Source: a virus
Virus record (IMG/VR): IMGVR_UViG_3300042991_001118
Location: 1-64,000 of that record
Length of the DNA: 64,000 nt
Reading direction: 5' to 3' (one strand)
Positions 11,233-22,213 of this stretch are shown here, in pieces (positions within the stretch are counted from its first letter, which is position 1; each line of letters starts with the position of its first letter). A program made the position numbers and the translations under genes. Under the pieces are notes generated by a model. The model did no database searches, had not been told where the DNA came from, and was given only the letters and a program-made list of their open reading frames with translations.

Positions 11233-11261
11233 TTGCAAACCGCTTGCAAATGTGGTATAAT
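11233..11261 (+). promoter_or_regulatory. Strong sigma70-type promoter for the early island
   Basis: TTGCAA-17 bp-TATAAT with an extended TGn and an AT-rich upstream element. Confidence 0.8.
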
Positions 11262-11269
11262 ATAGATAG

Positions 11270-12050
11270 TGAAAAATTAAATGAGTTTCACGTCTGGTGA
11301 AGAGCTAGAAAACTTAGCTTGGCAGCCCAGAACCCTTAAAAATGCCCAGAAGAATCCAAGATGGCACAAATAAGTGCAAGGATTAGGGCGGGTGGACGGG
11401 ATGAACGCTAAGAATACTCTAGCGACTCCAACCAGTGCAGAAGTCGGTTGCCCCACTATCCAGAAATGGAAGATGGTGAAAGAAAGACGAAAGTCTTTTA
11501 GAAACCTGAATGACAAGACTTCTAAAAAGGCGAGGCGCAAAGACACACAACGGTGGCTTGTAAGATGTGTGTCCAAAAGAAAAGCCTAAAGCGCAAAACC
11601 CTACATGTGAGTCCCGTAGACAATCAAGGAACTTAGAAAAATCCTCTGGTTGGGTACGAGGATGTCAAGTGAAAAGACTCGAAGACAGAGGTGCTAAGAC
11701 CGAATCTTCTCGAATGAGTCCGCACTGGCCGAACCACGAGGTTCAGGTACAATCTTTCAGTGCGCCGCTTCTTGGTACGCGCAATGCGAAAAAATGGGAA
11801 GACTTCCCAATACCACTAAGCGTAACCCAAGGTCATCTCAGGGAACTAAGCCCGAACGACCTTCCAGAGTACCTGGCGAAAGGGGAGATTGCGAAACACT
11901 CCTAAACGAAAGTTTAGGGCCGAACTCGAAAGAGGGAAGGATACCTGGCGAAGTGTGAAAGACACGAAGTAGCCATGAAGACAACGTAGGGTGTGATCTC
12001 CGAGGGTGGCTTGCCTAAGCCGAATCGGAAGAGCAAAAAAGAAACTCCTT
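11270..12050 (+). ncRNA. Candidate large structured ncRNA (~780 nt)
   Basis: No credible ORF; GAAA-capped hairpins (11483-11498, 11901-11918, 11925-11934); long-range stem 11598-11604/11986-11992; lies between a promoter and a terminator. Confidence 0.65.
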
Positions 12051-12065
12051 TGATTTAAAACTACA

Positions 12066-12118
12066 AAAAGTGGAGTGCTTTTTCAATAACCATACGAAAA
12101 AGCTATACTCCGCTTTTT
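12066..12118 (+). terminator. Terminator-like hairpin
   Basis: aaaagtggagt...actccgctttt stem followed by a T run. Confidence 0.55.
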
Positions 12119-12428
12119 GTATTAAATGGTTAATGTTTCGAGTAAGCAGAAAAAAAAATGCGATTATAAGTCCTGTTTCTAATGGTAGATAACAGGCAGA
12201 GAAGTAATGAATTTTCTGCCGTTGCGAAACAACAAAACAAATATGACAAGAATAGGCTGCGCCCTACTCCTCACGGAGTGTGCTGTGTATGTCTTGGTTC
12301 CCACGCGGTACCGAGACACGTCTGAGTTTACTCAGATGGGTTGGATTCCCCAGGTCATATTTCAGCAACCAATTAACAAATTTTTCTGAGGCATCCCAAT
12401 GCGGAGTAAGTCCTCAAAGGAGATTTTT

Positions 12429-12740
12429 ATGGAACTTGTTGTAATTATTTTTTCTAGTTTATCTTTTCTATTCACAATTTTTGGTTGGATAACTGCTATG
12501 TGGCAGCTAAAAGACCTGCGGAAACAACTGGCAGCCAACAAATATTCCATTTACCTCTTCATTGATGGTAAGTGGATTCTGGCACCACAAGAAGCAATAG
12601 ACGCAGGTCTTGCCCTCGTCGAGGGACGACAGGCGTATGGAGCTATCACAAGCGGATTGTGTGACCACATAGTGGACAGGAAAAAAGAAAAAATTTACAT
12701 GTTCCCTAAAGGAGCTAAGGTAGAGATACCTACCGAATAG
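12429..12740 (+). CDS. Hypothetical membrane-anchored protein
   Basis: AAGGAG RBS, N-terminal TM helix. Confidence 0.7.
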   Translation: MELVVIIFSSLSFLFTIFGWITAMWQLKDLRKQLAANKYSIYLFIDGKWILAPQEAIDAGLALVEGRQAYGAITSGLCDHIVDRKKEKIYMFPKGAKVEIPTE

Positions 12741-12904
12741 CTCCCATCCACTGAACGACAAGCGTTCTATCCTGGTGCAAGTCCAGGCAGTGGATCAATT
12801 AAGGCTTCGCCGTGATGCGCCATGAAGCACACGGCACAGGAAAAAAAGAACAAACAATTTTTGAGGCTTCCAGACAAATGGTATAAGTCCTCAAGGAGGT
12901 CATT

Positions 12905-12967
12905 ATGGGCTTCGTAATTGCTATGGCGGTTTGGGCCGCCATTGGCTATGCCCTCTTTGCGGCATAG
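12905..12967 (+). CDS. 20-aa hydrophobic microprotein MGFVIAMAVWAAIGYALFAA
   Basis: AGGAGG RBS within motif D; manual translation. Confidence 0.55.
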   Translation: MGFVIAMAVWAAIGYALFAA

Positions 12968-12969
12968 CT

Positions 12970-13923
12970 CAAACCCCTGTGACCCTAACACACGTTAGCG
13001 GTCGGCTCAGTTAAAAAACCACACTAAAGGGTACTGGGCGTTAAGTGTGGAACGGACGTGATTATGAGTTCTTCCGGTGGAAGCGATATCATTACGCGTA
13101 AGACAAGGTCTGAAACGTAATGGAGTTAAGTACACCAGAAGAAAAACGAGTAAGAATATCCGAATCCTGAACGTATTGGAAAGAAGACAGCATTTCTCGA
13201 TGTCGATTATAAGACCTGAATCTCACGAGAGAAACAGGCTGAGAAGCAAAGAAAACTGTTGTAAAAATTGGGAAAGAAAAAGCATTAGTAGGCGCGAATA
13301 ATATGGATTAGACGATAAGCCCTATCATTTTGAATTTTGGAACCATGCGGAAAGCCAAGACGTTCCGGAAACCTTTATATAATAAAACGAGAGCAAACCA
13401 GCTAAGGAGGGTTTGCTCCCAACGTGAATTACCCGTTGTTGCCACGCCCTACGTGATTATAATAGTCGCCTCTGTTGAGAAACAATCTCATGCTTATCTC
13501 AGAATAAGACCGAAGAGATATTAGCCTCAACATGCTGCCGCCAAGGCGTGCTGGACCCCATCGCAAAAAGTAAAACAATACTGGCAAGTTAATCCAAGTC
13601 TCCATAGAGAAGTTGGTTTTTTTGCGTGAGAAATGGAAAGCAAAACGAAAGAGACACCCAGCCGTGCGCACACCAAGAAGCGAAGCATGTGTTGCTCCTT
13701 ACTCCCTTGGAGGAGTAAACATTGGAAAATAGATTATCTGTATTCCAGTGGTTCCTTATGTGAACTGGACAATAAATCTGCTGCTCGATCTCGTTCGGAC
13801 AGTCTAAATAATTGTCGACTATAGGCACACTGTGCTTATCTGGGAGCATACCCCAGTTAGACTATCACGTTCTACACCCCTGGTACCGATCCTAATGTGG
13901 GACGGCGGCCAGGGTCTTTTTTT
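12970..13923 (+). ncRNA. Second candidate large structured ncRNA (~950 nt)
   Basis: ORF-poor; multiple hairpins; possible end-to-end pairing 13054-13062/13864-13872; ends in a hairpin plus T7 tract. Confidence 0.45.
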
Positions 13924-13972
13924 ATTCCATTTTTGAGGCAGTCATCGACATAAGTCCTCAAAGGAGTTTTGT

Positions 13973-14212
13973 ATGAAAAAGATAAAAAAATCGTTTATAG
14001 AAATATCTCCCAAACTTTTTGGGACGGAAGAAAAAGTAATTTTTAAAAATGTGGGAAAAAAATCCATCGAAATAGTGGGGATTTCCCCAATAATTCCAAG
14101 AGGGAGGCAGCTACGGAGTATCGAAATCTATTTCGTGGCACAGTTTATTATTCCACGAAAAAAAAACTGGAAAGAAAACGCAACCAGCGTGCTTAAAAAA
14201 TTAGGATGCTGA
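13973..14212 (+). CDS. Hypothetical protein
   Basis: AAGGAG RBS behind motif D. Confidence 0.65.
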   Translation: MKKIKKSFIEISPKLFGTEEKVIFKNVGKKSIEIVGISPIIPRGRQLRSIEIYFVAQFIIPRKKNWKENATSVLKKLGC

Positions 14213-14687
14213 TTCTTCAAGTTGTAAAACCCGATGCCCCACGGAGATGACTTCAATGTAACGGCAATACTAAGAAAAAGAATTCCATGCTGGAAGCCAA
14301 TGTCCGGCGCATGGAACGGAAGGCTGCACCGTGGACATGAAATGAAAGCAGGACGAATAATCCAATGCAATAAAGGCATTTATTGCATTGGATATATGGC
14401 ATGGACGTATGCAGGACATAAATTCAAATTTGACATCTTCACGGGCTGTTAAACTGAATTAGTATCCTCGACGACGTAAAAATAGATTTGGTTAGCTTTA
14501 GCTATATCTAACCATTCCATATAAAACTTCACGATAAATGCCATCGTGAAGACTAAAGCTAAAGGCACAATTTAACCCTCGTTAAACACGCCATTATAAA
14601 GACGTGTCCTGGAGAATAACCAGGATTGTGCAATACAAACCCTGCTAAAGTAGCAGGTACTTATCCCAAAATTTTAAGGAAAAATAA

Positions 14688-14927
14688 ATGGAAAAATTAA
14701 GTTTTCTTACCGAGGTACAAGGAATTTTGAGGTCCAAAGATGTTGGGCACCTATGCAGTCTAGAAAAAAAGTATGACGTACCCAACATAAAGTTGCATCC
14801 TCTAGAAAAAGTTTTGCTGGAAGTATGTTCACACCGCAGGATGCAACTCAAGCGGTCCAAAAATAATACGAGATTCAATGAGCAATATTGGTGGTGGCAA
14901 TACCTCCAGTATTGCAAAGACGAATAA
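14688..14927 (+). CDS. Hypothetical protein
   Basis: AAGGA RBS, 79 aa. Confidence 0.6.
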   Translation: MEKLSFLTEVQGILRSKDVGHLCSLEKKYDVPNIKLHPLEKVLLEVCSHRRMQLKRSKNNTRFNEQYWWWQYLQYCKDE

Positions 14928-14943
14928 CCCATCACGCAAAAAC

Positions 14944-15969
14944 ATGCACCGCAGAGATAACTTCAAAGCGCGTGCTCTATGTATCTAGCCCGTGAAGCTA
15001 AGACAAAAACACCTTAGTCTTCACGGGCTATTTTTTTATCTCTACAAATTTTTTACAGGGCTTCCCACACAGGATATAAGACCCTAAAGGAGTTTTTATG
15101 GTAACGTTTCTACGGGCATTATATAACGCCACACAGTGCACGGGACTGCAAGGTCATTACAACTTAAATAGTTGTATCCTGACACAAGACTCCGTCGCAG
15201 CCAGCGACGGAAAGAAATTGTATGTCTCTCACCCTACCGAATATCCCTGGAAAGAAATTTCTCAAGGAGAGGAAGAAATATTTCTGTTCCCCCTTGGGAA
15301 ACAGAAACAAGACTGGTCCACCCCGATAATCAAAAAAAATCAAAAGGAGCAACCAATACTCCAGGCACTAGGGTGTGACTGGGCAATCCAAACGCCACAA
15401 AACACCACATCTAAAATGTTGGGATTTAAAAAGATGATGTCCGTTTTCCCAACTATCGAAAATCCATACTATATGCCAGTTTTGGCAGCAGGATGGAAAG
15501 AAATAATGAAATGGAAAAAGAAACACGAAATGGGCAGAAAAAAGAAAGATTTCTGTCCCGTGGTGTTTTCTCAAGTGGACGGAGGGCTATACGCCCAGTG
15601 CTCACGAGAGCCAAATCACCATCCATCGGATGGTGAACCAAATTACGTACCAATAGATGAAATCCCCATAATCCATGTGGTGGAACGCTGCCGAACGACC
15701 GTAAAGGCGTTCGCGATAAACATGTGTCTTATTCCGAAGCACATGCCAGCACCACAAGAGTTGTGCGCCGATGCATCGTATGAGAACAGAACATCTGTGC
15801 TTCTGCGATGGGGTAGAGAAAAAATATTTCTGATCGGGCTTCCCCTGATCGAGGAATAAAAAAATGCACCGCAGAGATGACTTCAAAGCGCGTGCTCTAT
15901 GTATCCTAGCCCGTGAAGCAAAGATGAGTCACAACGTGACATGTCTGAAACTTCACGGGCTTTTTTTTT
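14944..15969 (+). repeat. Motif A: hairpin plus intrinsic terminator, 2 copies (14944-15037, 15864-15969)
   Basis: Near-identical atgcaccgcagagat...gcgcgtgc followed by the agcccgtgaag/cttcacgggct stem and a T tract. Confidence 0.8.
15098..15859 (+). CDS. Hypothetical protein, weak resemblance to a beta-clamp-like domain
   Basis: YNLNS...VAASDGKKL resembles Y-x-LNG...VATDGHRL. Confidence 0.5.
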   Translation: MVTFLRALYNATQCTGLQGHYNLNSCILTQDSVAASDGKKLYVSHPTEYPWKEISQGEEEIFLFPLGKQKQDWSTPIIKKNQKEQPILQALGCDWAIQTPQNTTSKMLGFKKMMSVFPTIENPYYMPVLAAGWKEIMKWKKKHEMGRKKKDFCPVVFSQVDGGLYAQCSREPNHHPSDGEPNYVPIDEIPIIHVVERCRTTVKAFAINMCLIPKHMPAPQELCADASYENRTSVLLRWGREKIFLIGLPLIEE

Positions 15970-16023
15970 GTTTCTACATTTTTACAGGGCAGTCTACGGA
16001 CATAAGACCCTAAAGGAGATTTT

Positions 16024-16200
16024 ATGTACAAAGTATTTGCAAGAACATGGTGGAAAAAGAATGAAAGCTGACCAGACGGACTAGATCCGCAGGCCGGAAA
16101 ACCCACCACCATAAAGAAAAACATTCCAAGCGGAGGCGTTCGCAATCGCCAAAGAGTGGAATAAAAAAAATAAACCGCATTGGCTTATCACCGATGCGGT
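16024..16200 (+). pseudogene. Disrupted small phage gene
   Basis: Good RBS; MYKVFARTWWKKNES*PDGLDP (TGA at 16069); plausible continuation AEAFAIAKEWNKKNKP in another frame. Confidence 0.45.
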
Positions 16201-16266
16201 TTTTTATTCCCTTTAACTTTTTTTTGCGTGAGTAGGAAAGCATTCCGAAAACGCAGGAGGAAAAAA

Positions 16267-16938: not shown

Positions 16939-17027
16939 AAAAACAGAGACATGTCAGGCAAACAATCTGATGTGTCTTCCATTTCCCCACTGTAAATCCA
17001 ATAAATTCTTTTTTGAAAGGAAAAGAT

Positions 17028-17828
17028 ATGGAAAACCAACAGCAGGAAAAAATCAGAAAAACACTGGACGGAATCATCCAGTTGTTCCAAACAGGGAACG
17101 TTCCCCAAGCGATTTCCATCGCGATGTTCCCTCAAAACGATGTCCCCTCAGCCAATTGGTCCCTGTCAAACAGAATCATCATGGCGATTAACGGGACATC
17201 AGATGCCAGAGGCTTCCAACAATGGAAGCAAGCTGGACGGAACGTCAAGGCAGGAGAGAAAGCATTTCACATCTTGGCTCCCAAGATGATTAAGAAGAAG
17301 ACAAAAACCGATGCAAATCAGGATCAGAAAGACGAATTTATGTGTATCGGATTCCTGACCATACCTGTGTTCAAAGTAGAACAGACGGAGGGAAAACCAG
17401 TCCAGTACGAAAAACTGGTTCTTCCAAATCTCCCATTACTGGCGAAAGCACTGGAATGGCACATCGATGTCATCCCAGTGTCTGCACATGGCGAATGGCG
17501 TGGCGCATACAGCTACAACGAGTTGGGAATTGAGAATATCAAGCTCGCCACGCCACATGAGAAAACATTTTTTCATGAACTTTCTCACGCCGCGCATAAA
17601 CGAGTGCTCGGAGAATTAAAAAAATGCCAAGACCCCAAACAAGAGATTGTTGCGGAACTGGCCGCGCAAACCCTGTCCCAACTCGTCGGAATCGAGACAG
17701 AAAGCTCTCTAGGAAATTCCTACGAATACATCAAAGAATATTCCGAGAAAATCGGTAAAGACGTAGGGAAGGCTTGCCTTTCAGTGCTTTCAGAGGTTGA
17801 GAAGATTTTAACCCTCATCCTCGAATAA
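17028..17828 (+). CDS. ardC: ArdC-family antirestriction protein (ssDNA-binding plus zincin-like domain)
   Basis: WSLSNR, RGFQQWKQAGRNVKAGEKA, HELSH, EIVAE motifs. Confidence 0.8.
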   Translation: MENQQQEKIRKTLDGIIQLFQTGNVPQAISIAMFPQNDVPSANWSLSNRIIMAINGTSDARGFQQWKQAGRNVKAGEKAFHILAPKMIKKKTKTDANQDQKDEFMCIGFLTIPVFKVEQTEGKPVQYEKLVLPNLPLLAKALEWHIDVIPVSAHGEWRGAYSYNELGIENIKLATPHEKTFFHELSHAAHKRVLGELKKCQDPKQEIVAELAAQTLSQLVGIETESSLGNSYEYIKEYSEKIGKDVGKACLSVLSEVEKILTLILE

Positions 17829-17993
17829 AACCCATGCACCGGAGCAGTGAAAAACCTGCCCGTGTGCAACACGCCACACCATTTAACGGAGCCGCATGTT
17901 GCGTTAGCACTTCGTTCCGCTTAGAGTGTAGACGAATGCCGTCGAAATAAGCTGTCATAGGAGTGCAACGCACGGAAAACTGCGGAAATCTAT

Positions 17994-18323
17994 ATGGAAA
18001 AAATCGAAATATTAAAAGTCCTAACAAAAGTATACGAGGCGACCACACCACAAGAAGCACAAAAAAAACTTTTTTTGGCAGAGAAACTATCAAAGTTCAC
18101 CCTTCCCTGTCCAATGTGTTTTTCCTCTGACTACGAAGGATCTCCAGAACGATCCCAGTTCGGGGAGAACATGCATTTTTCGTTCGAGACGCAGAGTTTT
18201 TTCTGTGAGGATTGTGGAAATGAATACTCGGCGGACGCGATTCTGACCGAGCTATCCGAAAAAATCGAGGAGTTTAGTAGGAACATTGAGGGCTTCGCTC
18301 TCCTCCTGCCCTTCCTCGAATAA
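17994..18323 (+). CDS. Zn-ribbon hypothetical protein
   Basis: CPMC...CEDC; start follows motif B. Confidence 0.7.
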   Translation: MEKIEILKVLTKVYEATTPQEAQKKLFLAEKLSKFTLPCPMCFSSDYEGSPERSQFGENMHFSFETQSFFCEDCGNEYSADAILTELSEKIEEFSRNIEGFALLLPFLE

Positions 18324-18399
18324 ACCAAAGGCAACGTCCAGGTGAAACATCCTGGATGTTGCAGCACGAATCAGTCTTCTCATGAAAGGAGAAAAAACC

Positions 18400-18861
18400 A
18401 TGAGAACACAACTCTTTGAGGATGCGAATGCATCCCACTCCCTCTTCGTAAATGCCATAGTGAATGAGGGTGGAGAGTTCAAAGCGCGGACCTTCACGAA
18501 GGTGGCGATTGAACTCGTGCAGAGAAATGGCGAAAACCAGGCAACCCAAAACGTGTCCTTCTTCTTGGACATGGGCGACGCTCTAGCCTGGTTCACAATG
18601 ATGTCCGATACAACCTGGACGATGGAGCTAACCCAGTTCAAAGAATTCTCTGGAAAAACTCGGGGTATAAAAATTTCCCCAACCGGAGGGAAGGGAGTCC
18701 GAGTCTCCATCCAGGAAACAAACGGAACCGAAAAAAAACTCATTTACTTTGACCTGAGTAAGGTCAAAGCATTGGAAATGGCACTCGTTGTGAGTGCCTT
18801 CACAAAGGTGTTTTTCAACAAAAAATTTAGCCAATTATTGGCTAAGGAGGAAATTCAATGA
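18400..18861 (+). CDS. Hypothetical protein
   Basis: AAGGAG RBS, start MRTQLF. Confidence 0.7.
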   Translation: MRTQLFEDANASHSLFVNAIVNEGGEFKARTFTKVAIELVQRNGENQATQNVSFFLDMGDALAWFTMMSDTTWTMELTQFKEFSGKTRGIKISPTGGKGVRVSIQETNGTEKKLIYFDLSKVKALEMALVVSAFTKVFFNKKFSQLLAKEEIQ

Positions 18862-19079
18862 ACGATAGAAACATGGATAGAAACAGTGACCCTGCCAATC
18901 TTTTAAAAAACCTAGGCATGTGCAAAACCATTCCAGAGTTGTTGGCGGACTCGGTCCGCAACAACGATTCCCTCGCGGTACGAATCGAGCAGCCATCCGG
19001 CTGCATAACGATCGGACATAAACCTAAGACCTCAAATTCTCGCCGCGAACTAATCATAAAGGTCGAAAGCGACGACTAA
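18858..19079 (+). CDS. Hypothetical protein
   Basis: AGGAGG RBS, ATGA overlap with the upstream gene. Confidence 0.6.
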   Translation: MNDRNMDRNSDPANLLKNLGMCKTIPELLADSVRNNDSLAVRIEQPSGCITIGHKPKTSNSRRELIIKVESDD

Positions 19080-19417
19080 GAAAAAAGGGACTGGACTGGA
19101 TAAAATCCTGGACAGTCCAACACGCGCCGAAGGCATATCGCCGAAGGCAAAACTGAAAGGATAATTATGTCTGAACAACGAAAAAAAATCATGTTGTCGC
19201 AGTTAGCGGAGGCAATCCGCAAGACAACACGGACGTGAAAAAAGAGCAGGGTCAGAGTGGAATATCTCTACCCTCGCTAACATATCCCGTACCATAATCA
19301 CACTATTTAATGGATCCACATGTTGCGTTAGCACATCGTGCTGCTTAGAGTGTAGGCGGATGCCGCCGAAATAAGCATGTAGCGGTCGTACAATGCACAG
19401 AAAACTGTGGAAATTTT

Positions 19418-19615
19418 ATGTCTGAAAAAAAGCAATATCTCTGCATGGTCATGGCGTATACCATAGTACCATGCTTATTGGGTCTTTTTGGAAAAGACGG
19501 ATTCCTGGCTTCTTTCACGGAAGCGGGAATCGCCATCCTGGCATTCATTGCCGGAGGCGTTGGATTTTTTCTGATCGGAAAAACTATCATAGCCATCGAA
19601 AAATGGCTTGATTAA
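19418..19615 (+). CDS. Small 2-TM membrane protein
   Basis: Hydrophobic 65 aa, between motifs B and C. Confidence 0.65.
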   Translation: MSEKKQYLCMVMAYTIVPCLLGLFGKDGFLASFTEAGIAILAFIAGGVGFFLIGKTIIAIEKWLD

Positions 19616-19806
19616 ATGAAAAAAGAGCAGGGTCAGAGCGAAATACCTCTACCCTTGCTACTAGGCACAGACAGGGTATTATGCCCTATCTGTCTTTTTT
19701 TAAGGACACAGGTGCAGAGCACATCGTGCTGCTTAGAGTGTAGGCGGATGCCGCCGAAATAAGCATGTAGCGGTCGTACAATGCACAGAAAACTGTGGAA
19801 ATTTGT

Positions 19807-20424
19807 ATGTTAAAGTTTATAACAAGACCAGCATCCAAGCTGGAAACAATTTCATCATTCAGGATTGAACAAATCACTGAGCATATCCACACAAATATCA
19901 GATCGTGGGAATGCGAATGTGTCGTCATCAACGAAACACAAACTGGGAAAGCCTGGTATGATGGAGTAGTAGTGGTATCTAATTTCGGACCAAATCATGG
20001 AATGGGATGGGAAACATGGATTCTCGCGAAAGAAATCCGTTCCAACAATCCCCAAACGCTATTCTGGTATAGCGAAGGAATCCGATGGGAATGGCTCCAC
20101 CACGAAACAAAACGTGATGTAAGGCAAGAGAAAATGGTTATACTGCCAATTTCGCAAAACAACAGGATGGACAATAGATTCCATCTAAAGGACATCCTGA
20201 AAAATAGAATGGCAACATGTCCAATCCCTATCGCTCCATCTATCCCAGGATTCTCCCTAGCGGAAATCCAAAATCCAGCGATGGTAAATGTTTCTGCGCG
20301 AAATGCGCAGAGGAAAGAAAAAACACATAAAAAACTAAGCGGAGGTCGGAGCGAAACGCTTCCCTTCGCTATCACGAAACAGAGAGGTCGAAACCTCTCA
20401 TTTTTTTTCAAAAAGGAAATTTTT
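19807..20424 (+). CDS. Hypothetical protein, open in frame into RadC
   Basis: Start follows motif B; the 3' part crosses hairpins and a T tract, so the true end is uncertain. Confidence 0.4.
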
Positions 20425-20919
20425 ATGAAAAAAGCAGAAATGGCGGACAGACTCCGCCTCCTGGAGATAGAAAATTCCTCTCTCAGAGAGGAATTAGAAA
20501 ATCTAAAAAGTCTATCTCCATCTCCCAAAAAGTGGCTCCAGCCACAAATGTATGGGAGTAAAACCGTAAACGAAAGATACCAGGTGCTCCTGCGAAACAA
20601 GATGCAGGAGTATTTCTACGTGATTCTGTTGGATACAAAAAACAGAATAACGCAAGAAAACCTGGTGTCTATAGGAACCCTTAATATGTCCCTCGTACAT
20701 CCACGCGAAGTTTTCGCCCCAGCCATCGAGGCCCGGGCTTGTTCAGTTATTTTGGTCCACAATCATCCGTCAGGTGACCCGACACCAAGCTATGATGACA
20801 TGGCTTTGACGGAACGGCTGGTCGAAGTCGGAAAAATGGTCGGGATCGAAGTCCTAGACCATATCGTCATCGGTGAAACATACTCAATGTCCTTAAAGGA
20901 ATTGGGTGTGATAAAATGA
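20425..20919 (+). CDS. radC: RadC-like JAB domain protein
   Basis: QEYF...LDTKN...GTLN.SLVHPREVF...HNHPSGDPTPS..D...LDHIVIG; own AAGGA RBS. Confidence 0.9.
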   Translation: MKKAEMADRLRLLEIENSSLREELENLKSLSPSPKKWLQPQMYGSKTVNERYQVLLRNKMQEYFYVILLDTKNRITQENLVSIGTLNMSLVHPREVFAPAIEARACSVILVHNHPSGDPTPSYDDMALTERLVEVGKMVGIEVLDHIVIGETYSMSLKELGVIK

Positions 20920-21013
20920 AAAAAGAGCAGGGTCAGAGTGGAATACCTCTACCCTCGCTAACATATCCCGACAGGGTAGTATGCCCTGTCTTTCTTTTTT
21001 TAAAGAATGTCCT

Positions 21014-21217
21014 ATGACACCAGAAAGAGCAAAACAGCTCATTGAATGGATGAAATGGGAAAATGGAATGTGCGGATGCTTAGGCGCAAAAAAGCCGCAA
21101 TTCCCAGAGGAAACCAAGCAAGAAAAAGAATTCCTCTTAGGTGAATTAAAGAAAAAATCTGGGGAATACTGTATGGCGTATCTCCTGTACGAGATCGCCA
21201 ATAGTAAAAACCAATAA
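21014..21217 (+). CDS. Hypothetical protein
   Basis: Short ORF, probable start MTPERA. Confidence 0.5.
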   Translation: MTPERAKQLIEWMKWENGMCGCLGAKKPQFPEETKQEKEFLLGELKKKSGEYCMAYLLYEIANSKNQ

Positions 21218-21375
21218 AAACACTGCCTCAGTGTGCCAATACCACATTGAGGCAAATACCACAATGTTTAAAGGAGCCGCAGGTGTAGAGCACTTCGTGC
21301 TGCTTAGAGTGTAGACGGATGCCGTCGAAATAAGCTGTAACAGGAGTGCAACGCACAGAAAACTGCGGAAATTTT

Positions 21376-21771
21376 ATGCATCCACCAATATATCCCCATT
21401 CTTACGAAGCAATATTGTGGGAAGGCAGTGTATACTGCCTGTCCTGCATCCCACCATGTGCTAGAGAATCCGAAATTTCCCCAATATACGCAGAATCCGT
21501 GTGGGATACCCCACCAGCCTGCGAAAATTGTGGAAAAATTCACGACTACATGGAGATCACTCAGAAAGAGTGCATCTCCTGTGGCACATGGCACGAGGAA
21601 AATCCCCAAGTCAAGGTCCAATGCGGACCCTGGGGAAGAGAAGGCATATGTCCAAATTGTTTTGAGAAGGCCAAGTGGCCGTTACACACAAAGACAAAAG
21701 GAACATACGACAGAGAACAAGGAGACCGCCAGAAATGGACGGTCTTCTATGTAGGACATATCCTCGAATAA
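21376..21771 (+). CDS. Cys-rich (multiple CxxC) hypothetical protein
   Basis: Four CxxC motifs; start follows motif B. Confidence 0.7.
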   Translation: MHPPIYPHSYEAILWEGSVYCLSCIPPCARESEISPIYAESVWDTPPACENCGKIHDYMEITQKECISCGTWHEENPQVKVQCGPWGREGICPNCFEKAKWPLHTKTKGTYDREQGDRQKWTVFYVGHILE

Positions 21772-21937
21772 AACCCATGCACCGGAGCAGTGAAAAACCT
21801 GCCCGTGTGCAACACGCCACACCATTTAACGGAGCCGCATGTTGCGTTAGCACTTCGTGCTGCTTAGAGTGTAAGAGGATGCCTCTGAAATAAGCTGTCA
21901 CGGAAGTGCAACGCATAGAAAAAATGCGGAAATTTGT

Positions 21938-22162
21938 ATGTCTGAAAAAATATATAAGGGATACTTGAAGATTGGATTCCAATACTTTCTTCAAATACCT
22001 GACCCATCATCAAGATGGGGATTCCAAATATACGACGATGACCAGGCGTGGGATGGGGGGATCGGTTTGTTTAATCTGATCCCTAGAATCCCAGTGAAAG
22101 AAAGCAAAGTCCCTAAAGAGGATAGAGAAAGGTTAGGTTGGATATTGAAAGAACCAACCTAA
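21938..22162 (+). CDS. Hypothetical protein
   Basis: Start follows motif B. Confidence 0.65.
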   Translation: MSEKIYKGYLKIGFQYFLQIPDPSSRWGFQIYDDDQAWDGGIGLFNLIPRIPVKESKVPKEDRERLGWILKEPT

Positions 22163-22163
22163 C

Positions 22164-22213
22164 AAAAAAAGACCCCTAACCGGAAAGAAATTTCCGGTTA
22201 GGGGTCTTTTTTT
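22164..22213. terminator. Bidirectional intrinsic terminator
   Basis: A7 - perfect 16-bp stem gacccctaaccggaaa/tttccggttaggggtc - T7, between convergent genes. Confidence 0.9.

What the first reader, a model, noticed from the sequence alone, without database searches (positions are those of the whole stretch)
17885..21940. Motif B: a folded ~95-nt domain inserted between Shine-Dalgarno and start codon (split RBS), five copies
Seen: in every copy an SD-like sequence (CGGAG, TGGA, AAGGA, AAGGAG, CGGAG) lies immediately 5' of the closing helix (CCGCA/TGCGG or CACA/TGTG, covarying). AAAT(T/C)T..ATG follows immediately 3', with no strong SD near the ATG. Removing the domain gives e.g. AAAGGAG-AAATTTTATG, like the island's ordinary RBS (AAAGGAGATTTTATG). 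An inner helix covaries (GACG/CGTC, GGCG/CGCC, AGAG/CTCT) beside a conserved GAGTGTA/GAAA loop-E-like internal loop. Known: simple hairpins bridge SD and AUG in T4 genes 25 and 38. Inference: a new multi-branched cis-RNA that licenses translation only when folded (riboswitch or protein switch) or when excised.
Basis: partly seen in the sequence, partly recalled or inferred. Interest (0 to 1): 0.9.

Follow-up and report, generated by a model that had tools for sequence, protein, structure and literature searches.

The report
Phage leader hairpin splitting ribosome site
Five unrelated small genes of an uncultivated phage each carry the same folded 91-95-base RNA hairpin between a ribosome-binding-like sequence and the start codon; it matches no known RNA family, and it may be an unusually large "split" ribosome-binding site, but its function is untested.

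Summary
The element occurs five times on the + strand (hairpins 17892-17985, 19316-19410, 19707-19797, 21277-21368, 21835-21929). There are no other copies in the 116-kb phage record.

Each hairpin is flanked 5' by UUUAA-N-GGA(G). It is followed 3' by a 7-9-nt A/U-rich spacer and the ATG of an unrelated gene. The two downstream proteins I searched have no relatives.

Evidence for a folded RNA:
- Helices keep pairing through compensatory changes: 92.7% of cells are paired, six pairs change on both sides, and slid controls give almost none.
- The + strand folds 5-9 kcal/mol better than the - strand.
- All 14 columns of the 7x4 internal loop and the apical triloop are invariant.

I found no Rfam family and no homologue in viral, metagenome, genome, phage or plasmid collections. 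The scan has not seen it on other DNA.

- The minimum-energy fold is an unbranched rod in four of five copies.
- Copy 2's distal SD is only GGA.
- A weak GGA sits 9-10 nt before every ATG, with its two G's paired in the closing helix.

Best reading (about 0.45): a noncontiguous translation-initiation region, like T4 genes 25/38 or thrS/rpmE, probably serving as a shared operator and spread as a cassette. RNase III-type processing, SD masking and a tolerated palindromic insertion remain open. Nothing supports excision. Only four independent sequences exist, and there are no RNA data.

The parts
17888..17891 (+). c1 distal SD-like tract GGAG, preceded by AUUUAAC
   Evidence: -5.4 kcal/mol to a generic anti-SD
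17892..17985 (+). c1 hairpin, 94 nt (P1 CCGCA/UGCGG to P5 GACG/CGUC)
17986..17996 (+). c1 spacer AAAUCUAU plus AUG
17994..18323 (+). c1 gene, 109 aa, Cys-rich, no relatives found
19312..19315 (+). c2 distal tract GGAU (weak: GGA only)
   Evidence: -3.1 kcal/mol
19316..19410 (+). c2 hairpin, 95 nt (P1 CCACA/UGUGG, P5 GGCGG/CCGCC)
19411..19420 (+). c2 spacer AAAUUUU plus AUG
19418..19615 (+). c2 gene, 65 aa, hydrophobic small protein (my reading), no family match
19702..19706 (+). c3 distal tract AAGGA, directly after the U-run of an intrinsic terminator
   Evidence: -5.2 kcal/mol
19707..19797 (+). c3 hairpin, 91 nt (P1 CACAG/CUGUG; P2 replaced by GUGCA/UGCAC)
19798..19809 (+). c3 spacer GAAAUUUGU plus AUG
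19807..20919 (+). c3 reading frame; it runs without a stop into the RadC-like JAB gene, which has its own RBS and ATG at 20425
21271..21276 (+). c4 distal SD AAGGAG (strongest of the five)
   Evidence: -7.5 kcal/mol
21277..21368 (+). c4 hairpin, 92 nt (P1 CCGCAG/CUGCGG; P2 replaced by GUGU/GCAC)
21369..21378 (+). c4 spacer AAAUUUU plus AUG
21376..21771 (+). c4 gene, 131 aa, Cys-rich, no relatives found
21831..21834 (+). c5 distal SD-like tract GGAG
   Evidence: -5.4 kcal/mol
21835..21929 (+). c5 hairpin, 95 nt (P1 CCGCAU/AUGCGG, P5 AGAGG/CCUCU); most stable copy, z = -4.97
21930..21940 (+). c5 spacer AAAUUUGU plus AUG
21938..22162 (+). c5 gene, 74 aa, no family match; followed by the island's strong bidirectional terminator

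Best explanation
Motif B is a cis-acting structured leader in the + strand mRNA. A 91-95-nt hairpin is embedded inside the translation-initiation region of five unrelated early genes with no family match.

When the hairpin folds, its closing helix P1 places a single-stranded UUUAA-N-GGA(G) tract next to an unstructured A/U-rich spacer of 7-9 nt and the AUG. Together these form a noncontiguous (split) ribosome-binding site. The 30S subunit would contact both flanks while the rod projects away.

The invariant 7x4 internal loop (GAGUGUA/GAAA), the apical G-G-AUG-C-C and the A-rich bulge (AGAAAA) are the likely recognition surface for one shared trans-acting factor. That factor is most plausibly a phage or host protein. 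This would make the five genes a translational regulon.

The whole unit (SD-like tract, hairpin, spacer, ATG) is spread as a cassette by recombination among genes of the early island.

Shown: the copies, the fold, its strand, the compensatory changes, the invariant loops, the geometry and the lack of known relatives.
Inferred: that it acts on translation, that the distal tract is used by the ribosome, and that a factor binds the loops.
For: Copies and position:
- There are five copies and no more.
- Each ends 7-9 nt before the first ATG of its reading frame. Gene calls in the public protein collection use the same starts for c1 and c4.

Fold:
- 92.7% of cells are paired and 6 pairs carry compensatory changes. 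No shuffle of 500 reached the covariation score, and slid controls give about none.
- In c3 and c4, P2 is rebuilt in another register (GUGCA/UGCAC, GUGU/GCAC).
- The + strand is 5-9 kcal/mol more stable than the - strand in all five copies. Several pairs are G-U. This points to an RNA in mRNA sense, not a duplex-DNA palindrome.
- Variation sits in stems (25 of 68 columns). None of the 14 internal-loop and apical-loop columns varies (P = 0.0035, chosen after the fact).

Ribosome-binding context:
- About 75% of the phage's long ORFs have an SD core near a candidate start.
- Ordinary island RBSs pair with a generic anti-SD at -5.4 to -12.1 kcal/mol. The proximal GGA of Motif B genes gives only -3.3 to -3.5. 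The distal tracts of c1, c3, c4 and c5 give -5.2 to -7.5, the range of the ArdC and RadC RBSs.
- In c3, homology to the other copies begins just at UUUAAGGA, right after a terminator's U-run, so the tract belongs to the unit.
- No sigma-70-like promoter lies in the motif, so it is transcribed as a leader.

Precedent:
- T4 gene 38 (22 nt brought to 5) and gene 25 (27 nt brought to 11) use hairpins between SD and AUG (PMC3014915).
- thrS and rpmE have operator hairpins flanked by a single-stranded A/U-rich enhancer (UUUUAACAU in rpmE). Long stable stem-loops are tolerated in the ribosome's mRNA track (PMC7297116).
Against: - There are no expression, probing or reporter data. The only public run holding this DNA is a DNA run.
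- All evidence comes from about four independent paralogous copies in one genome. Shared ancestry inflates conservation.
- c2's distal tract is only GGA.
- A proximal GGA at -9/-10 could be the real, weak SD. Its two G's are buried in P1, which argues for masking rather than bridging.
- The insert is about four times longer than any proven SD-AUG bridging hairpin. Steric tolerance on the 30S platform is unknown.
- In the thermodynamic ensemble the distal tract is only 17-76% unpaired. c3's minimum-energy fold does not form P1.
- No candidate binding protein was identified.
Confidence: 0.45

Rival explanations
1. RNA processing and stability signal. The rod is a double-strand-specific (RNase III-type) cleavage site that cuts the long early transcript into single-gene mRNAs, as the T7 early R0.3-R1.3 sites do. 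It may also act as a 5' hairpin, with the upstream SD-like tract serving as a STAB-SD-type stabiliser against 5' decay.
For: P2, P3 and P4 give about 20 near-contiguous base pairs with small internal loops, in intercistronic positions of what looks like one transcription unit. There is a single strong promoter at 11233-11261 and none in the motif. Every gene in this stretch also has a 3' hairpin (Motif A, hairpin C), so each gene is bracketed by structures. The T7 RNase III sites and the STAB-SD/SP82 stabilisers are from my own knowledge of the literature. I did not look them up here.
Against: Cleavage within the rod would separate the only decent SD from the AUG. That would leave an mRNA with a GGA-only RBS. 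T7 sites lie upstream of the SD, not between SD and AUG. Invariant loops with covarying stems suggest sequence-specific recognition rather than generic dsRNA recognition. The host and its RNases are unknown.
Confidence: 0.2
2. Negative switch. The true RBS is the proximal GGA plus the A/U-rich spacer. P1 masks it, and translation needs P1 to open, triggered by a factor, a ligand, temperature or an upstream ribosome. The distal GGAG would then be a standby or loading site, or incidental.
For: The two G's of the proximal GGA are the last pairs of P1 in all copies. In c2 the extra U-A pair buries the A as well. A competing local 3' hairpin exists: CACAG-AAAA-CUGUG in c2 and c3, and CGCAU-AGAAAAA-AUGCG in c5. 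It wins in c3's minimum-energy fold, so alternative conformers are available. The RadC RBS AAAGGAAAUUUUUAUG resembles the motif's 3' end GCGGAAAUUUUAUG.
Against: GGA alone is far weaker than ordinary RBSs of this phage (-3.3 to -3.5 versus -5.4 to -12.1 kcal/mol). The alternative 3' hairpin is not in the same register in all copies and shows no independent covariation. It is unclear why a 90-nt conserved rod would be kept to mask 2-3 nt.
Confidence: 0.15
3. Mainly a DNA-level cassette. An imperfect palindromic element landed in an ordinary RBS and was tolerated because it folds out of the way. The resulting repeat now serves as a homology patch for shuffling genes of the early island, like PeSL cassettes of T4-type phages. 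It has no regulatory role of its own.
For: c4 without its hairpin reads UUUAAAGGAG-AAAUUUUAUG, the island's standard RBS. The repeats precede unrelated genes with no family match. A 163-nt repeat (17817-17979 and 21760-21922, 91% identical) starts inside the last codons of two unrelated genes. PeSLs likewise end in an SD and ATG and flank ORFans (PMC2839356).
Against: Compensatory changes, a P2 rebuilt in a new register, the + strand bias and invariant loops all show selection on the RNA fold itself. There is no sigma-70 promoter and no U-tract terminator in the motif, and both define PeSLs. There are no target-site duplications. No recombinant joints were seen, although contigs cannot show their absence.
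Confidence: 0.1
4. A new self-cleaving or excised RNA, or a small-molecule riboswitch.
For: The invariant internal loops flanked by covarying helices are of the general kind seen in ribozymes and aptamers. That small ribozymes cluster among small phage genes is my own recollection; I did not check it here.
Against: No Rfam ribozyme, riboswitch or intron model matches, even at E = 10. I see no pseudoknot or multi-helix junction in the folds. There are no homologues in any collection, so no conserved ligand pocket can be inferred. No ligation system or splice-like boundary is evident.
Confidence: 0.05

Closest known systems
Split translation-initiation regions of phage T4 genes 38 and 25 (Gold 1988; Nivinskas et al. 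1999; Malys and Nivinskas 2009; reviewed in PMC3014915)
   Same: An SD lies too far from the AUG, and a stable hairpin between them closes the gap (22 to 5 nt, 27 to 11 nt). These are phage genes, and the hairpin is a positive element.
   Different: Here the insert is 91-95 nt (SD to AUG 98-104 nt) with five helices and conserved internal loops. It is used by five unrelated genes in one genome. The distal SD is weak in one copy. Nothing has been tested.
Noncontiguous TIRs with an operator hairpin: E. coli thrS, rpmE and rpsA (PMC7297116 and references there)
   Same: A long irregular hairpin with conserved bulges sits inside the ribosome-binding region. A single-stranded A/U-rich tract 5' of it (UUUUAACAU in rpmE, UUUAAC here) enhances initiation. 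The hairpin is the binding site of a repressor protein.
   Different: In thrS and rpmE the canonical SD lies 3' of the hairpin. Here the better SD lies 5' of it. Those are single-gene autoregulatory operators, whereas this is a five-gene repeat with no known binding protein.
PeSL (promoter-early stem-loop) cassettes of T4-type phages (PMC2839356, PMC4122927)
   Same: Repeated intergenic modules that end in an SD and start codon. They flank small ORFans in a plastic early region and probably act as homology patches for modular shuffling.
   Different: PeSLs are defined by a sigma-70 promoter plus a terminator-like stem-loop. Motif B has neither. Its hairpin lies between SD and ATG and is under RNA-level selection.
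Phage T7 early RNase III processing sites R0.3-R1.3 (own knowledge)
   Same: Several copies of a similar irregular hairpin with an internal loop lie between genes of one early polycistronic transcript, next to anti-restriction genes.
   Different: T7 sites lie upstream of the whole RBS, and cleavage there is proven. Here cleavage would detach the SD, and it is untested.

Membership tests
Split TIR with bridging hairpin (T4 gene 25/38 type) | SD-like sequence at a supra-optimal linear distance from the start codon | tested here: met
   98-104 nt lie between the distal tract and the AUG in all five copies. Tract strength is -3.1 to -7.5 kcal/mol and is weak in c2.
Split TIR with bridging hairpin (T4 gene 25/38 type) | A stable intervening structure whose closure brings SD and AUG to a functional spacing | tested here: met
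   P1 starts 0 nt after the tract and ends 7-9 nt before the AUG. Whole-unit minimum free energies are -33.5 to -42.8 kcal/mol. Compensatory changes occur in P1. c3's P1 is not in its minimum-energy fold.
Split TIR with bridging hairpin (T4 gene 25/38 type) | No functional SD at canonical distance | tested here: inconclusive
   Only GGA is present at -9/-10 (-3.3 to -3.5 kcal/mol), with its G's paired in P1. Whether it is used cannot be told from sequence.
Split TIR with bridging hairpin (T4 gene 25/38 type) | Destabilising the hairpin lowers translation, and compensatory restoration rescues it | not testable with these tools
   This needs reporter or toeprint assays.
Any Rfam 15 family (riboswitches, ribozymes, leaders, sRNAs) | Score at or above the family's gathering threshold | tested here: not met
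   No hit in the whole window at gathering thresholds. Nothing overlaps the copies at E <= 5. The best hit on c5 alone is SNORD16 at 17.7 bits against a threshold of 45.
PeSL cassette | Sigma-70-like early promoter inside the repeat | tested here: not met
   The promoter scan finds none within any copy. TTGCGT-17-TAGAGT exists only in c1, c2 and c5, and falls below the scan's threshold.
PeSL cassette | Stem-loop acting as terminator or attenuator | tested here: not met
   No U-tract abuts the hairpin (AAAUUU follows it). The terminator scan flags only the minor 5-bp local hairpin of c2.
PeSL cassette | Repeat ends in SD plus ATG and flanks ORFans in a plastic early region | tested here: met
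RNase III processing site (T7 R-site type) | Irregular hairpin of about two helical turns between cistrons of one transcript | tested here: met
   P2-P3-P4 give about 20 bp with a 1-nt bulge and a small internal loop. The island has a single strong promoter.
RNase III processing site (T7 R-site type) | Specific cleavage by RNase III | not testable with these tools
   No RNA run holds this sequence.
Integron attC site | RYYYAAC at one end and GTTRRRY at the other end of a folded recombination site | tested here: not met
   By reading the copies: ATTTAAC occurs only in c1 and c5, and there is no GTTRRRY at the 3' end. I found no integrase gene among the proteins scanned.

The most novel reading that the evidence does not exclude
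A new class of phage cis-regulatory RNA. A roughly 95-nt folded domain must adopt its native structure to assemble a ribosome-binding site from two halves about 100 nt apart. This would be by far the longest SD-AUG bridge known. The invariant loops would be read by one phage-encoded factor or ligand, which would switch a set of anti-defence-island genes on or off together.
Probability: 0.25. Interest if true: 0.8.

Novelty: new variant of a known kind. Interest (0 to 1): 0.55.

Why it matters
If the distal tract really is the SD in use, the 30S subunit can accommodate a 95-nt rod between SD and start codon. That would widen the known limits of bacterial initiation. It would also affect gene callers and RBS calculators, which assume a contiguous RBS.

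A single structured operator shared by five genes next to ArdC- and RadC-like genes would be a compact post-transcriptional regulon in a phage early or anti-defence island.

It could also serve as a portable part for synthetic biology: a cassette of SD, hairpin, spacer and ATG.

If instead it is a processing site or a tolerated insertion, it is an ordinary kind of feature, though still an undescribed RNA motif.

Tried and rejected
Homologue hunts, all empty:
- Exact core pattern in viral contigs: 0 hits.
- Looser patterns in viral contigs: 1 hit in a coding region. A two-gap pattern gave 115 hits, and none of the 80 fetched loci was confirmed by the model.
- Metagenome contigs: 3 hits, all reading as unrelated sequence with no whole-motif match.
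- Genome contigs: 0 hits, then 50 hits with only local pattern-sized matches.
- blastn against phages and plasmids: no match.

Relatives of the phage:
- The nearest ArdC-bearing viral contig (47% identity) has no Motif B, in the fetched locus or in the whole record.
- The only capsid relative is a 4-kb contig.
The 60%-identical ArdC contigs found could therefore not be inspected.

RNA evidence: no RNA holder is listed, and one DNA run (a cave metagenome) is probably the source. Laying its contigs shows unitigs that break at the repeats and no joints. This says nothing about excision.

Ideas dropped:
- ssDNA (Frpo-like) promoter or hairpin promoter: no -35/-10 in the right arm, and the element is a tailed phage.
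- K-turn: the loop strands do not fit the pattern of a 3-nt bulge followed by tandem G-A pairs.
- Hairpin-ribozyme-like loop A: the 5' side of that loop is not conserved as unpaired in c3 and c4.
- tRNA-like: ARAGORN finds none.
- Trans-complementarity search: it found only the copies' own antisense.
- Upstream ORF 17834-17950: it is present only where the 163-nt repeat is.

Full report
**Setting.** The window is the first 64 kb of a 116,166-bp IMG/VR virus record estimated to be 61% complete. I used the putative capsid ORF as a query and found one 68%-identical relative. The finding lies at the distal end of an 11-kb + strand island (about 10.9-22.2 kb). The island is full of short genes and repeated hairpins. 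It includes a GP88-family gene, an ArdC-like anti-restriction gene (17013-17828) and a RadC-like JAB gene (20425-20919). The promoter scan finds one strong sigma-70-type promoter at 11233-11261 and none within Motif B. Several intrinsic terminators lie inside the island, and a strong bidirectional one ends it at 22165-22212.

**The observation.** Repeat finding, BLAST and pattern search against the whole record, and a covariance model all give the same five + strand copies and no others. Script-checked anatomy: a distal purine tract (GGAG, GGAU, AAGGA, AAGGAG, GGAG) preceded by UUUAA; then, with no gap, a hairpin of 94, 95, 91, 92 and 95 nt; then AAAUCUAU, AAAUUUU, GAAAUUUGU, AAAUUUU or AAAUUUGU; then ATG. 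In c1, c2 and c5 that ATG is the first possible start of its reading frame. In c3 and c4 only an in-frame GTG inside the hairpin precedes it. The five downstream products (109 aa, 65 aa, a frame that runs on into RadC, 131 aa, 74 aa) are unrelated to each other by my reading. They match no Pfam or PHROG family apart from the RadC domain and sub-threshold hits. For the 109-aa and 131-aa proteins, a search of 5.8 billion proteins returned only themselves.

**Is it a fold?** In four of the five copies the minimum-energy structure is the same unbranched rod. It runs P1, an asymmetric A-rich loop (AGAAAA on the 3' side), P2, a 1-nt bulge, P3, a small loop, P4, a 7x4 internal loop (GAGUGUA/GAAA), P5, and an apical AUG loop closed by G-C pairs. 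In c3 the minimum-energy fold breaks into local hairpins. Z-scores against shuffles run from -1.6 to -5.0.

On the alignment, 92.7% of pair cells are standard pairs and six pairs show changes on both sides. These are two in P1, three in P5 and one in P3. No shuffle of 500 reaches the covariation score, and sliding the partners by 1-3 columns removes the signal. In c3 and c4 the 5' strand of P2 was replaced, and pairing is restored in another register (GUGCA/UGCAC, GUGU/GCAC). The + strand folds 5-9 kcal/mol better than its complement in all five copies, partly through conserved G-U pairs. So the selected molecule is the sense RNA, not duplex DNA or an antisense transcript.

Variation is concentrated in stems (25 of 68 paired columns). 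None of the 14 columns of the internal loop and apical loop varies (P = 0.0035, a comparison chosen after the fact). A four-way-junction alternative is possible, with extra arms AGCAC-UUC-GUGCU and GUGC-AAC-GCAC. Those arms show no compensatory change and are broken in c1 and in c2/c3 respectively. The rod has one three-state covarying pair in that region. Firm support therefore exists for P1 and P5. P4 never varies. The middle is probably a rod.

The limits are serious. c2 and c3 are identical over 87 nt, so there are about four independent sequences, all paralogues in one genome.

**Is it known?** No Rfam family reaches threshold in the window. Nothing overlaps the copies at E <= 5. The best hit on c5 alone is noise. 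Pattern scans designed to tolerate stem covariation, followed by the covariance model, found no homologue. I searched IMG/VR, JGI metagenomes, one genome per prokaryote species, and GenBank phages and plasmids. The nearest ArdC-bearing viral contig has ordinary RBSs and no such element. The scan's own notes list it only on this stretch. The motif is so far confined to this phage.

**How it most likely works.** The phage is an SD user. About three quarters of its long ORFs have an SD core near a candidate start. Ordinary island RBSs pair with a generic anti-SD at -5.4 to -12.1 kcal/mol. Motif B genes have only GGA at -9/-10 (-3.3 to -3.5 kcal/mol), and its G's are the last pairs of P1. The tract just 5' of P1 gives -5.2 to -7.5 kcal/mol in four copies, the range of the ArdC and RadC RBSs, but only -3.1 in c2. 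In c3, homology with the other copies starts exactly at UUUAAGGA, straight after a terminator's U-run, so the tract is part of the unit. Removing the hairpin from c4 in silico yields UUUAAAGGAG-AAAUUUUAUG, the island's standard RBS form.

This geometry is that of the split or noncontiguous initiation regions described for T4 genes 38 and 25 (spacing reduced from 22 to 5 nt and from 27 to 11 nt; PMC3014915). It also resembles thrS, rpmE and rpsA. There an operator hairpin sits within the ribosome-binding region, a single-stranded A/U-rich tract 5' of it enhances initiation, and long stable stem-loops are tolerated in the ribosome's mRNA track (PMC7297116).

I therefore rate highest (about 0.45) a noncontiguous initiation region whose folded hairpin juxtaposes the two single-stranded halves. 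Its invariant loops would serve as a common operator for a trans-acting factor. The strict version, in which the distal GGAG is the SD used, is about 0.25-0.3.

**Rivals.**
- An RNase III-type processing or stabilising hairpin, like the T7 early sites, fits the roughly 20-bp core and the single-promoter, hairpin-bracketed gene layout. However, it would cut the SD off the gene (0.2).
- A masking switch, in which P1 hides the weak proximal RBS, is suggested by the buried GGA. A competing 3' hairpin also forms in c2, c3 and c5 and wins in c3's minimum-energy fold (0.15).
- A tolerated palindromic insertion that now acts mainly as a recombination patch, like a PeSL (PMC2839356), fits the cassette pattern. 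It also fits the 163-nt repeat that begins inside the last codons of two unrelated genes. It does not explain selection on the fold, and the defining PeSL promoter and terminator are absent (0.1).
- A ribozyme, an excised element or a metabolite riboswitch has no positive evidence (0.05).

**What could not be done.** No RNA data exist for this sequence. The single DNA run is probably the source sample. Its contigs merely break at the repeats.

**Verdict.** This is a real, apparently new structured RNA motif in a position that is rare but has precedent. The mechanism is inferred, not shown. It is a new variant of a known kind (split initiation regions, operator hairpins). It is of moderate to good interest and is readily testable with reporters.

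Noticed in passing
window 19236-19289, 19617-19670, 20917-20970 (degenerate fourth about 20337-20375): A second repeated hairpin (AGCAGGGUCAGAG...CUCUACCCUCGCU) starts at the stop codon of three genes. At 19671-19700 and 20970-21003 it is followed at once by an intrinsic terminator. Genes here are thus bracketed by a 5' Motif B and a 3' hairpin.
   Followed up: partly
window 17817-17979 and 21760-21922; variant at 18313-18347: A 163-nt repeat (91% identical) begins inside the last codons (..ILE-stop, TCCTCGAATAA) of two unrelated genes. It carries a U-less hairpin (GCACCGGAGCAG-UGAAAAAC-CUGCCCGUGUGC) and then Motif B. It looks like a recombination junction for cassette shuffling.
   Followed up: partly
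window 19807-20919: The frame that starts after Motif B copy 3 runs 370 codons without a stop. It passes through a terminator-like hairpin (20382-20409) and the RadC gene's own RBS and ATG (20425). This could be a fusion, a chance open linker, or an indel error near the A-runs at 20310-20335. A TAA in another frame ends at 20330.
   Followed up: no
window 11233-16202 and 19671-21003: There is one strong promoter (TTGCAA-17-TATAAT with a TG extension) but at least five intrinsic terminators inside the same-strand island. Either they are leaky, or the island needs processive antitermination. Promoters of an unrecognised type are also possible.
   Followed up: no
window about 11270-12400, 12970-13960, 14215-14685: These are long stretches without a convincing ORF, directly behind the strong promoter and between small genes. 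No Rfam family matches them at gathering thresholds.
   Followed up: no
window 19393-19410, 19780-19797, 21912-21929: A local 3' hairpin (CACAG-AAAA-CUGUG in c2 and c3; CGCAU-AGAAAAA-AUGCG in c5) competes with P1 for the same 3' strand. It could be an expression-platform-like alternative conformer, or a by-product of the P1 5' strand and the P2 3' strand sharing GCA.
   Followed up: partly
loci L133-L182 (genome contigs pattern hits): About a third of the 50 hits for TAGAGTGTA-N5-ATG-N5-GAAATA come from Flavobacterium or Flavobacteriaceae genomes. None is a whole-motif match. The cause could be a conserved gene segment or simply A/T-rich composition.
   Followed up: no
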